In this document: piece after piece, positions 5,576-5,960 of the stretch
Layout: each line of letters starts with the position of its first letter
Position numbering within the stretch: position 1 is the first letter of the stretch
Source of the DNA: Escherichia coli
GTDB lineage: Bacteria > Pseudomonadota > Gammaproteobacteria > Enterobacterales > Enterobacteriaceae
DNA length: 64,000 bases
NCBI RefSeq assembly: GCF_044647545.1
Contig: NZ_CP172818.1
Reading direction: 5' to 3' (one strand)
The notes under the pieces: model-generated
The model's database searches: none
What the model was told of the DNA's origin: nothing
The model's input: the letters and a program-made list of their open reading frames with translations, nothing else
Program-made: the position numbers and the translations under genes

Positions 5576-5790
5576 GTGGCGAAGCATCCTCCCGTGTTTT
5601 AATTCTCATTGATGGTCAGGAGGTAACTTATCAGCGCGCCGGAGATAATTATGGTGTGGGACTGTTGATAGATGAGTCTGCGCTGGAGCGTGTTGAGATA
5701 GTGAAAGGTCCATATTCCGTACTGTACGGTTCACAGGCAATTGGCGGTATTGTTAACTTCATCACCAAAAAGGGTGAATCTCCAGACTCC
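5576..5790 (+). pseudogene. yoeA: TonB-dependent receptor, continuation of plug domain after the IS2 (..EASSRVLILIDGQEVTYQRAGDNYGVGLLIDESALERVEIVKGPYSVLYGSQAIGGIVNFITKKG..), then truncated
   Basis: In-frame continuation of the 3911-4245 fragment once the IS2 and one copy of the duplication are removed; frame terminates inside the IS2-like relic. Confidence 0.7.
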
Positions 5791-5960
5791 CTATATCACT
5801 TAAATTGATACAACTTTTTAGAGTAGTCATTAGTGAACAGATAATTGATAACTCAGAACCAGTAAAATGCAAAAGACGCACCACGCTGGGAAAATCGCTG
5901 CTATTCAGCAGAGTTTTGTATCGAGAATGGTGGCCAGCCACTTATTGCTCTCGCGTAAGC
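5776..5960 (+). mobile_element. Decayed IS2-family left-end relic (partial inverted repeat plus about 40 codons of an orfA-like 5' region), oriented opposite to the complete IS2
   Basis: gaatctccagac..atatcacttaaat..tttttaga.tagtcatt..gaacagataattgat aligns with the IS2 left end; ATG of orfA is ATA here; downstream residues IIDNSEPVKCKRRTTLGK resemble Ins[19 protein letters not shown]. Confidence 0.55.

What the first reader, a model, noticed from the sequence alone, without database searches (positions are those of the whole stretch)
5576..5960. Second, decayed IS2-family left end in inverse orientation, fused to the 5'-truncated yeeP
From about 5776 the plus strand reads gaatctccagac...atatcacttaaat...tttttagagtagtcattagtgaacagataattgat, which aligns with the IS2 left end and orfA start but lacks the outermost 14 bp, has ATA in place of the orfA ATG, and continues with diverged orfA-like codons (IIDNSEPVKCKRRTTLGK versus [18 protein letters not shown]) before the GTPase-like yeeP sequence. 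The left end of the complete IS2 (at 5575) and this relic face each other across only 200 bp of receptor coding sequence. The relic therefore appears to mark an older IS-mediated deletion that removed the receptor 3' part and the yeeP 5' part.
Basis: seen in the sequence. Interest (0 to 1): 0.55.

Follow-up and report, generated by a model that had tools for sequence, protein, structure and literature searches.

The report
IS2-like scar between two deletions
A dead 190-bp piece of an IS2-like insertion sequence sits between a truncated receptor gene and a truncated GTPase gene in this K-12-type E. coli locus; it is an ordinary scar flanked by two separate deletions, though its right edge is a recurrent deletion breakpoint in other strains.

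Summary
Window 5775-5962 is the left end and early orfA of an IS2-group element: IS2 nt 14-181 at 71% identity and nt 218-245 at 89%, 90.6 bits against a maximum of 26.5 in 200 shuffles. It lacks the outer 13 bp, has ATA for ATG, a frameshift and two internal deletions. It faces the resident IS2 (4244-5575) across 199 bp of receptor coding sequence.

The relic is not specific to K-12. It is an old component of the cobU genomic island, found in about 2,400 of 5,426 complete E. coli genomes.

Two independent deletions flank it.
- The receptor|relic junction occurs in 562 genomes. Of these, 192 (strain D5 type) still carry everything to the right.
- The relic|yeeP junction occurs only in 359 K-12-type genomes. 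It is a 15,266-bp deletion with a 3-bp GTA microhomology that removed yeeP codons 1-107, including the P-loop.

Neither junction in the window keeps an intact IS end. Strain D97-1, however, has the receptor abutting a complete IS end, which may be an intermediate.

Unexpectedly, three other lineages have deletions that start within 3 bp of the K-12 breakpoint and end in cbeA, cbtA or rdcB. This looks like a deletion hotspot, and I could not explain it.

The scar itself is ordinary and has no evident function.

The parts
3938..4243 (+). yoeA fragment 1: codons 1-102 of a 715-aa TonB-dependent (haem/haemoglobin-type) receptor
   Evidence: Collinear with the intact CFT073 gene L012:2325-4472. NCBIfam TonB-hemin, E 1e-67, below the curated cut-off. 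NC_000913.3 annotates it as yoeA gene fragment 1.
4244..5575 (-). Full-length IS2 (1332 bp). orfB is intact; orfA is interrupted. The left 317 bp (5259-5575) differ from K-12 IS2F at 21 positions, including indels.
   Evidence: NCBIfam 'IS2 transposase TnpB', 727 bits, for 4255-5160. ORF list. Difference list against W3110. Closest left-end variants elsewhere are 97.3% identical.
4239..4243 (.). 5-bp target duplication GTGGC of the IS2 insertion (second copy at 5576-5580)
   Evidence: Read directly from the sequence. The uninterrupted receptor in D5 has a single copy.
5581..5774 (+). yoeA fragment 2: receptor nt 307-500, ending at junction A
   Evidence: 99% identical to CFT073 L012:2626-2824. 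Homology stops at 5774, after which the intact gene reads AGGTGAC....
5775..5962 (+). Relic of an IS2-group (IS3 family) element: IRL nt 14-44, untranslated leader, and orfA codons 1 to about 52 with ATA start, frameshift and two internal deletions
   Evidence: Alignments and shuffle control. The same relic at 100% identity is in D5 and W2-5, and an 89%-identical, less decayed allele (83% to IS2) is in CFT073 and JJ2434. It is not annotated in NC_000913.3 or by PGAP.
5841..5843 (+). ATA at the position of the IS2 orfA ATG
   Evidence: The ATA is shared by every allele of the relic seen (CFT073/JJ2434, EC50, W2-5, D5), so the start codon was lost before the alleles diverged.
5963..5965 (.). Junction B: GTA microhomology between the relic side and yeeP. 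It coincides with the older boundary between the IS2-like piece and an IS911-like orfB fragment on the minus strand.
   Evidence: Three-way junction comparison. tblastn aligns IS3 OrfB GDITYLRTDEGWLY to D5 1301-1260, which corresponds to window 5963.
5966..6515 (+). yeeP 3' fragment: codons 108-290 plus stop of a 290-aa MMR_HSR1-type GTPase. The P-loop (GKSGAGKSS) and the DLPG motif are lost.
   Evidence: 99.2% identical to D5 L007:16529 onward. The intact D5 protein matches Pfam MMR_HSR1 over residues 39-151. The window ORF has no NCBIfam hit.
5805..6515 (+). Chimeric 236-aa ORF (TTG start): 53 relic-derived residues fused in frame to YeeP 108-290
   Evidence: There is no family hit. Promoter-like sites in 5500-6900 are at background level (2 found, 1.8 expected). 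I found no evidence of expression.

Best explanation
Window 5775-5962 is a non-functional remnant of an IS2-group insertion sequence. It belongs to the ancestral scaffold of the E. coli cobU genomic island, of which K-12 'CP4-44' is the stump. In less reduced strains the order is cobU, intact TonB receptor, ibrBA and further genes, IS2-like relic with a complete left end, IS911-like fragment on the opposite strand, IS66 transposase fragment, PfkB/amidotransferase/DMT/phosphotriesterase cluster, ISL3, YfjI, GTPase (yeeP), Ag43, and on to cbeA-cbtA. The window's arrangement arose by at least three separate events. (A) A deletion joined receptor nt 500 to base 14 of the relic. It measures 8,356 bp against the CFT073 order, about 45 kb against W2-5, or only 318 bp if it started from a D97-1-like state, where receptor nt 806 abuts the complete IS end. 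(B) A later deletion of 15,266 bp, found only in K-12-type genomes, runs from the relic's right boundary to yeeP codon 108 and was joined through a 3-bp GTA microhomology. (C) A canonical IS2 inserted into the receptor stump in the opposite orientation. The order of B and C is unresolved. Shown here: the anatomy, the junction sequences, the deletion sizes and the distribution among genomes. Inferred: that the deletions were microhomology-mediated or illegitimate joins rather than transposition products. Also inferred: that the scar has no present function beyond leaving yoeA and yeeP as pseudogenes.
For: The relic is homologous to IS2 well beyond chance. The identical relic with identical junction A sits in strain D5 without IS2, followed by 15 kb that includes an intact 873-bp GTPase gene and the same downstream genes as the window. 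An intact 2148-bp receptor occupies the same locus in CFT073, O157:H7 and Z135-2. The relic has complete outer bases in CFT073/JJ2434, W2-5, EC50 and D97-1, each with a different left flank. Junction sequences: A has no microhomology, B has GTA. Counts among 5,426 genomes are 562 for junction A, 192 for the D5-type continuation with junction A, and 359 for the K-12 type, of which 354 cover the query that extends into IS2; none has junction B with an uninterrupted receptor. The intact GTPase has MMR_HSR1 at residues 39-151, whereas the window fragment starts at residue 108 and has no family hit. yeeP is used as a neutral integration site in W3110 derivatives (PMC9923381).
Against: The immediate ancestor of junction A is not identified. 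D97-1 may be an intermediate or an independent event. The order of deletion B and the IS2 insertion cannot be resolved, because no genome in the collection has one without the other. The window matches no RefSeq complete genome exactly, so its lineage relative to K-12 is uncertain. At least three further lineages break within 3 bp of junction B. This argues that deletion B was not a random illegitimate event, and I cannot name the process that targets this site.
Confidence: 0.85

Rival explanations
1. One reading: one older IS-mediated deletion, anchored on this IS copy, removed both the receptor 3' part and the yeeP 5' part.
For: The relic lies exactly between the two truncated genes. IS-end-anchored junctions do exist in relatives, D97-1 and EC50.
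Against: 192 genomes have junction A but keep everything to the right, including intact yeeP. Both window junctions lie inside the IS sequence, not at a terminus. A single deletion cannot leave an internal fragment between its two endpoints.
Confidence: 0.03
2. Junction B, and the three similar junctions in other strains, arose when an IS once inserted at the relic's right boundary was excised by its transposase. The break was then repaired by microhomology-mediated end joining with one-sided resection, as described for IEE-dependent excision of IS3, IS1 and IS30 family elements. The result is a fixed left end and variable right ends 15-40 kb away.
For: Four junctions lie within 3 bp on the left and have 2-5 bp microhomologies on the right: yeeP GTA, cbeA GGGTA, cbtA TATCC, rdcB TA. 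At most 11 genomes carry junction A with neither the D5-type nor the K-12-type continuation. Three of those falling in a 7-bp window has P of about 3e-5 under a uniform 1.3-kb model (my calculation). PMC9943667 reports IEE in >30% of E. coli assemblies, MMEJ activity, and deletions from a few nt to >40,000 nt adjacent to the excised IS.
Against: I found no genome with an IS at this site. MDR_56 has IS30 and IS1203 elsewhere in the IS911-like fragment. The boundary is internal to an orfB fragment and is not an IS terminus. No inverted repeat or hairpin lies nearby. An ISL3|yeeP intermediate does not exist in 5,426 genomes. Detection was biased towards breakpoints close to 5965.
Confidence: 0.25
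3. Junction A derives from a D97-1-like state. An IS2-group end was first placed exactly against receptor nt 806, either by adjacent deletion or by recombination between an IS2 inserted there and the relic's homologous left end. A 318-bp deletion then removed 306 nt of receptor and 13 nt of the IS end.
For: D97-1 carries the same relic allele and the same right-hand neighbours, with ...GAGGCAT|TAGACTGGCCCCCTGAATC.... EC50 shows a second exact-end junction at a different left flank. A small secondary deletion explains why the break lies only 13 bp inside the IS.
Against: There is no microhomology at the 318-bp deletion. D97-1 could be an independent lineage. A one-step deletion from a W2-5-like or CFT073-like order fits the data equally well. 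The outer 13 bp differ by only single bases among alleles, so they do not discriminate.
Confidence: 0.4
4. The relic has been co-opted. Its IS2-type leader or promoter region and the TTG at 5805 drive expression of a chimeric 236-aa protein ending in the YeeP C-terminal half.
For: The deletion happens to be in frame, giving an uninterrupted ORF at 5805-6515. One promoter-like site lies at 5817-5845.
Against: Promoter-like sites are at background frequency, and the one found lies inside the ORF. The product lacks the P-loop and G3 motif and matches no family. In strain 2452 the equivalent fusion hits a stop codon at the junction, as I read from the sequence. The locus is disrupted without reported penalty.
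Confidence: 0.04

Closest known systems
IS2 (IS3 family, IS2 group); resident copy IS2F in K-12 yoeA
   Same: The relic shares IS2's left inverted repeat core, its leader and the start of orfA (IS2 nt 14-245). The less decayed CFT073 allele is 83% identical to IS2 over nt 1-175, and 84-86% to IS2-like elements on plasmids.
   Different: Only about 190 bp of 1331 remain. There is no IRR, no orfB, no frameshift site and no target duplication, and the outer 13 bp are missing. At 71% identity it is not a recent copy of IS2 but an old, diverged relative that was dead before the E. coli lineages compared here split.
cobU genomic island (GI-CFT073-cobU) and K-12 'cryptic prophage CP4-44'
   Same: The chromosomal site downstream of cobU and the gene order are the same. 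The window's yoeA, relic, yeeP, flu, yeeR, yeeS and following genes are collinear with CFT073 and D5. NC_000913.3 labels the region as cryptic prophage CP4-44.
   Different: The window retains only the two ends of the island's left half. About 8 kb or more is missing to the left of the relic and 15.3 kb to its right. The name GI-CFT073-cobU comes from my memory of Lloyd et al. 2007. The library confirmed only that the term exists.
IEE/transposase-dependent IS excision with adjacent deletions (Kusumoto et al. 2011, as summarised in PMC9943667)
   Same: The pattern is similar: one fixed end, a variable other end up to tens of kb away, microhomology of a few bp at the joint, and no IS left behind.
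   Different: No IS or IS terminus is documented at the fixed end here. K-12 is not known to me to carry IEE (from memory). This is a candidate mechanism only.
Classical IS-mediated adjacent deletion
   Same: In relatives D97-1 and EC50 a complete IS end abuts different left flanks while the right side stays constant.
   Different: In the window the IS end is not intact and the element has no transposase. The junctions do not have the form of transposition products.

Membership tests
IS3 family / IS2 group insertion sequence (as a complete element) | Two terminal inverted repeats bounding the element | tested here: not met
   Only IRL nt 14-44 is present (30 nt, 90% match to the IS2 end). The outer 13 nt are missing. 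No IRR-like sequence follows, because yeeP starts at 5966.
IS3 family / IS2 group insertion sequence (as a complete element) | orfA and orfB with programmed -1 frameshift encoding a DDE transposase | tested here: not met
   Only orfA codons 1 to about 52 remain, with ATA for ATG, a 1-nt frameshift and a 36-nt deletion. orfB is absent.
IS3 family / IS2 group insertion sequence (as a complete element) | Direct target duplication (5 bp for IS2) | tested here: not met
   No right end exists. The flanks are receptor nt 500 and yeeP codon 108.
IS2-group element (descent: a fragment derived from one) | Collinear nucleotide homology to the IS2 left end and orfA beyond chance | tested here: met
   E 2e-22; 90.6 bits against a shuffle maximum of 26.5. 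The CFT073 allele scores 178 bits, E 8e-49.
Classical IS-mediated adjacent deletion | Junction lies exactly at an intact IS terminus, and the IS is retained | tested here: not met
   Junction A is 13 bp inside the IRL. Junction B is about 245 nt into the element. The feature is met in relatives D97-1 and EC50.
YeeP/YkfA/YfjP-type GTPase (Pfam MMR_HSR1) | P-loop (G1) and G3 motifs within an MMR_HSR1 domain | tested here: not met
   Intact D5 homologue: MMR_HSR1 at residues 39-151, E 4e-14, with GKSGAGKSS and DLPG in its translation. The window fragment begins at residue 108 and has no NCBIfam hit.
TonB-dependent receptor | Plug domain plus complete 22-strand beta-barrel | tested here: not met
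   Only codons 1-166 of 715 remain, and they are split by IS2. The intact CFT073 protein matches TonB-hemin over residues 39-711.
IEE-type IS excision deletion | An IS of the IS3, IS1 or IS30 family present at the fixed breakpoint before the event, and IEE in the genome | not testable with these tools
   No genome with an IS at 5965 was seen in the rows I could inspect.

The most novel reading that the evidence does not exclude
The right boundary of the relic (GCGGGTA|TCC, window 5963-5968) is a site-specific deletion hotspot. At least four independent lineages lost 15-40 kb starting within 3 bp of this point, ending in yeeP, cbeA, cbtA or rdcB, each joined by 2-5 bp of microhomology. This would mean a recurrent, localised DNA break shapes how this island is eroded across E. 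coli. One possible cause is excision of an IS that repeatedly or ancestrally occupied the site, followed by MMEJ. The K-12 yeeP pseudogene would be one product of that process.
Probability: 0.3. Interest if true: 0.5.

Novelty: new member of a known kind. Interest (0 to 1): 0.25.

Why it matters
The scar itself matters little. It is an unannotated IS fragment that explains why about 190 of the roughly 310 bp between yoeA and yeeP in the E. coli K-12 reference have no feature. It also shows that 'CP4-44' is the stump of the cobU island, reduced by at least two deletions and an IS2 insertion. This gives exact ancestral coordinates for the yoeA and yeeP pseudogenes: receptor nt 500 of 2148, and GTPase codon 108 of 290. 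The more useful by-product is the recurrent breakpoint. If real, it offers a natural series of microhomology-joined deletions from one fixed site, which could be used to study how IS debris directs genome reduction in E. coli.

Tried and rejected
- **Chance similarity or native yeeP 5' sequence.** Rejected by the shuffle control and by the lack of any match to the D5 yeeP upstream and 5' region.
- **Gene conversion between the relic and the facing IS2 left end**, as the cause of the window's odd IS2. Rejected: the window-specific IS2 differences do not match the relic.
- **GTAAGCG at 5955 as the IR of an IS66-family element.** ISEc8 IRs do start with GTAAGCG. However, the IS66 TnpC homology starts about 45 bp further right (CFT073 11408), GTAAGC is also present in IS2 at that position, and the intervening bases are IS911-like orfB. 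Rejected.
- **ISL3-anchored two-step origin of junction B.** The EC50 segment boundaries are not ISL3 termini; the true IRs GGCTCTTCCGCAACC lie elsewhere. No ISL3-flank|yeeP junction exists in 5,426 genomes. No support.
- **Chi site or hairpin at the hotspot.** I saw no Chi octamer by eye, and there are no inverted repeats near D5 1262.
- **Metagenome scan for further junction types.** Only 6 loci came back, five K-12-type and one D5-type. Uninformative.
- **Literature search for 'yoeD' or earlier descriptions of the relic.** Nothing relevant. My memory of a 'yoeD' transposase pseudogene here is not borne out by NC_000913.3.
- **Strain BS-04 as the source of the window.** Its 273-bp junction region is 100% identical, but it carries IS5 and is only 98% identical overall.

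Full report
**What is in the window**

The region is the E. coli cobT-cobS-cobU / yoeA / yeeP / flu locus. Its parts, left to right:
- 3938-4243: the first 306 nt of a TonB-dependent receptor gene.
- 4244-5575: a full-length IS2 on the minus strand, flanked by the 5-bp duplication GTGGC.
- 5581-5774: receptor nt 307-500.

Aligned to the canonical IS2 of K-12, 5775-5929 matches nt 14-181 (71.4%, E 2e-22) and 5933-5960 matches nt 218-245 (89%). The score is 90.6 bits, against a mean of 18.8 and a maximum of 26.5 for 200 shuffles. The relic has ATA where orfA has ATG (5841-5843), a 1-nt frameshift, and internal deletions of 12 and 36 nt. Thirteen rather than fourteen outer bases are missing, because T5775 is IS-derived while the intact receptor has A at that position. 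The IS2-like part ends near 5962.

**The relic is old and widespread, not a K-12 event**

A search with 5770-5965 found it covering at least 80% of the query in 2,383 of 5,426 complete genomes, as two alleles. One allele is 100% identical to the window (D5, W2-5). The other is 89% identical and less decayed (CFT073, JJ2434, EC50); it is 83% identical to IS2 over nt 1-175 and 84-86% to IS2-like elements on plasmids. All alleles already have ATA and the 36-nt deletion. All are truncated on the right at the same place, so the element was dead before these lineages diverged.

In CFT073, JJ2434, W2-5, EC50 and D97-1 the outer 13 bases (TAGRCWGGCCCCC) are present.

**The undeleted locus**

CFT073, O157:H7 and Z135-2 carry an intact 2148-bp receptor at the same place downstream of cobU. 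Its product matches TonB haem/haemoglobin receptor models over residues 39-711.

In CFT073 the gene order is:
- receptor, ibrB, ibrA
- PIG-L deacetylase, glycosyltransferase, acetyltransferase, YaiO-like protein
- relic with complete end
- IS66 transposase fragment
- PfkB kinase, amidotransferase, DMT transporter, phosphotriesterase-like protein
- ISL3, and then the CP4-type genes

W2-5 has about 40 kb of extra genes between ibrA and the relic.

Strain D5 has exactly the window's receptor|relic junction, but without IS2. To the right of the relic it retains:
- an IS911-like fragment and the IS66 fragment
- the PfkB cluster and ISL3
- YfjI and an intact 873-bp GTPase gene
- agn43 and the rest of the island through cbeA-cbtA-yeeW, then yeeA and sbmC

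**Two deletions, not one**

Window 5576-5965 equals D5 L007:873-1262, and window 5963-11603 equals L007:16526-22166. The K-12-type arrangement therefore lacks L007:1263-16528, which is 15,266 bp. The three bases GTA are common to both sides.

The break falls after codon 107 of the 290-aa GTPase. Pfam places MMR_HSR1 at residues 39-151. The P-loop GKSGAGKSS and the DLPG motif are therefore gone, and the remaining ORF matches no NCBIfam family.

On the other side, receptor homology ends at 5774 (CFT073 L012:2824), and the relic starts at its base 14 (L012:11181). The gap is 8,356 bp against the CFT073 order and about 45 kb against W2-5. There is no microhomology at this junction.

Counts separate the two events among 5,426 genomes:

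| Arrangement | Genomes |
|---|---|
| Junction A (receptor\|relic) | 562 |
| Junction A with D5-type continuation | 192 |
| Junction A plus junction B (K-12 type) | 359 |
| K-type genomes covering the query that extends into IS2 | 354 |
| Junction B with an uninterrupted receptor | 0 |

The order of deletion B and the IS2 insertion is therefore open.

**A possible intermediate for junction A**

In strain D97-1 the receptor runs to nt 806 and abuts a complete IS end (...GAGGCAT|TAGACTGGCCCCCTGAATCTCC...). The relic allele and the right-hand neighbours are the same as in D5. D5 and the window differ from it by a 318-bp deletion: 306 nt of receptor plus 13 nt of IS end.

EC50 has a second exact-end junction, about 400 bp upstream of the receptor start.

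A constant right side with complete ends against varying left flanks is the signature of IS-end-anchored deletion, or of recombination with an IS2 inserted further left. It does not describe the junctions now present in the window.

**What lies at the right boundary**

The bases after 5962 in D5-type genomes read, on the minus strand, GDVTYIWTGKRWGY. This is the region around the first catalytic Asp of IS3-family OrfB proteins. tblastn with IS3 OrfB aligns residues 151-164 to D5 1301-1260, which is window 5963. An IS911-like orfA and IRL follow at D5 about 2020.

The boundary at 5962/5963 is thus an ancient tail-to-tail junction of two IS fragments. The CFT073 allele lacks 736 bp of the IS911-like piece, between two CCAG repeats. 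I considered and rejected an IS66 IR at 5955 and ISL3 termini.

**Unexpected: a recurrent breakpoint**

Three other junction-A strains have different deletions that start at the same spot:

| Strain | Junction sequence | Right-hand gene | Right end in reference |
|---|---|---|---|
| 2452 | GCGGGTA\|ACCGG | cbeA | D5 26444 |
| EC2641 | GCGGGTATCC\|TCCGG | cbtA | D5 27069 |
| Z0117EC0098 | GCGGGTA\|CCCGGG | rdcB | CFT073 41219 |

The rdcB point is also used by a different deletion in EC50.

The microhomologies are GGGTA, TATCC and TA, and GTA for K-12. At most 11 genomes have junction A with neither the D5-type nor the K-12-type continuation (562 - 359 - 192). For three of them to fall in a 7-bp window of a 1.3-kb target has a probability of about 3e-5. 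This is my calculation under a uniform model, and my detection favoured breakpoints close to 5965.

I found no IS end, hairpin or Chi-like cause and no ISL3|yeeP intermediate. The pattern resembles IEE/transposase-dependent IS excision repaired by MMEJ. That process is reported to delete from a few nt to more than 40 kb next to the excised IS (PMC9943667). It would require an IS once present at this site, for which I have no evidence. I leave it as an unexplained lead.

**Function**

I find no evidence that the scar does anything. The deletion happens to create an in-frame 236-aa ORF (5805-6515). Promoter-like matches are at background level. The product lacks the nucleotide-binding motifs. 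yeeP is routinely used as a neutral integration site (PMC9923381).

**Annotation status and novelty**

NC_000913.3 annotates the yoeA fragments, IS2F and a 426-nt yeeP pseudogene, and leaves 2070475-2070785 blank. PGAP likewise annotates nothing over the relic. By offset, the relic corresponds to MG1655 coordinates of about 2,070,471-2,070,661.

It is a new instance of a familiar kind of object, an IS fragment at a deletion scar, in a very well studied genome. Interest is low for the scar and moderate for the hotspot if it is confirmed.

**Provenance caveat**

The window has the K-12 structure (IS2 at the same site, junctions A and B) but is not K-12:
- It lacks IS5H.
- Its cobTSU region is 98.6% identical to MG1655.
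- Its yeeP allele is closer to D5 than to K-12.
- The left 317 bp of its IS2 are diverged and frameshifted.

No RefSeq complete genome matches it exactly.

Noticed in passing
window 5259-5575: The left 317 bp of the resident IS2 differ from K-12 IS2F at 21 positions including indels, while the other 1015 bp are identical. orfA is split into short ORFs (5269-5394 and 5118-5255, minus strand). The closest matches elsewhere are 97.3% identical IS2-variant left ends. This looks like a conversion tract from a diverged IS2 copy, so this IS2 is probably not autonomous.
   Followed up: partly
window 1-2656 and about 2656: The window lacks the IS5H insertion that K-12 has between cobU and yoeA. Its cobTSU region is only 98.6% identical to MG1655 (38 mismatches). 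No RefSeq complete E. coli genome matches the window exactly, although it shares the K-12 IS2 site and both deletion junctions.
   Followed up: partly
window 5981-6522: The yeeP fragment differs from K-12 at about 22 positions (about 4%) but belongs to a tract (window 5963-11603) that is 99.2% identical to strain D5. Either the K-12 allele or this one may have been converted by a paralogue (ykfA/yfjP type).
   Followed up: no
window 11603-11606 (against L007:22166-25524): A second K-12-type deletion of about 3.36 kb lies further along the island. Relative to D5, the 3' part of the long yeeR-like gene, IrmA, DUF905, DUF932 and the antirestriction gene are missing, and the break lies next to the yeeS start.
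   Followed up: no
L015:3681-3685, L016:3684-3688, L017:3684-3688 (equivalent to window 5963-5968): Three other strains (2452, EC2641, Z0117EC0098) have deletions starting within 3 bp of the K-12 relic|yeeP breakpoint. They end in cbeA, cbtA and rdcB, with 2-5 bp microhomology. This is an apparent deletion hotspot of unknown cause.
   Followed up: partly
L002:5736 and L017:3684 (both at CFT073 L012:41219-41223): The rdcB breakpoint is used twice, with different left partners: a flank 267 bp beyond ISL3 in EC50, and the relic end in Z0117EC0098. Either the events are nested or this is a second recurrent site. The sequences involved all contain GGTA/TACC-like motifs.
   Followed up: partly
L025:1550-1867 (strain D97-1): Here the receptor extends to nt 806 and abuts a complete IS2-like left end. 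This is a candidate intermediate for the window's receptor|relic junction, from which a 318-bp deletion would give the D5/K-12 state.
   Followed up: yes
L007:1263-2020 against L012:11384-11405: The 'transposase' pseudogene next to the relic in D5-type genomes is an IS911-like fragment (orfA, 5' orfB and IRL) on the minus strand. The CFT073 allele has lost 736 bp of it between two CCAG repeats, leaving only 22 bp.
   Followed up: yes
window 5805-6515: Deletion B is in frame and creates a 236-aa chimeric ORF: 53 relic-derived residues plus YeeP 108-290. It has no family match and no convincing promoter.
   Followed up: partly
L021 (metagenome contig OCQE01006148.1): This contig has a K-12-type relic|yeeP junction with an additional internal deletion in yeeP about 24 nt after the junction.
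   Followed up: no
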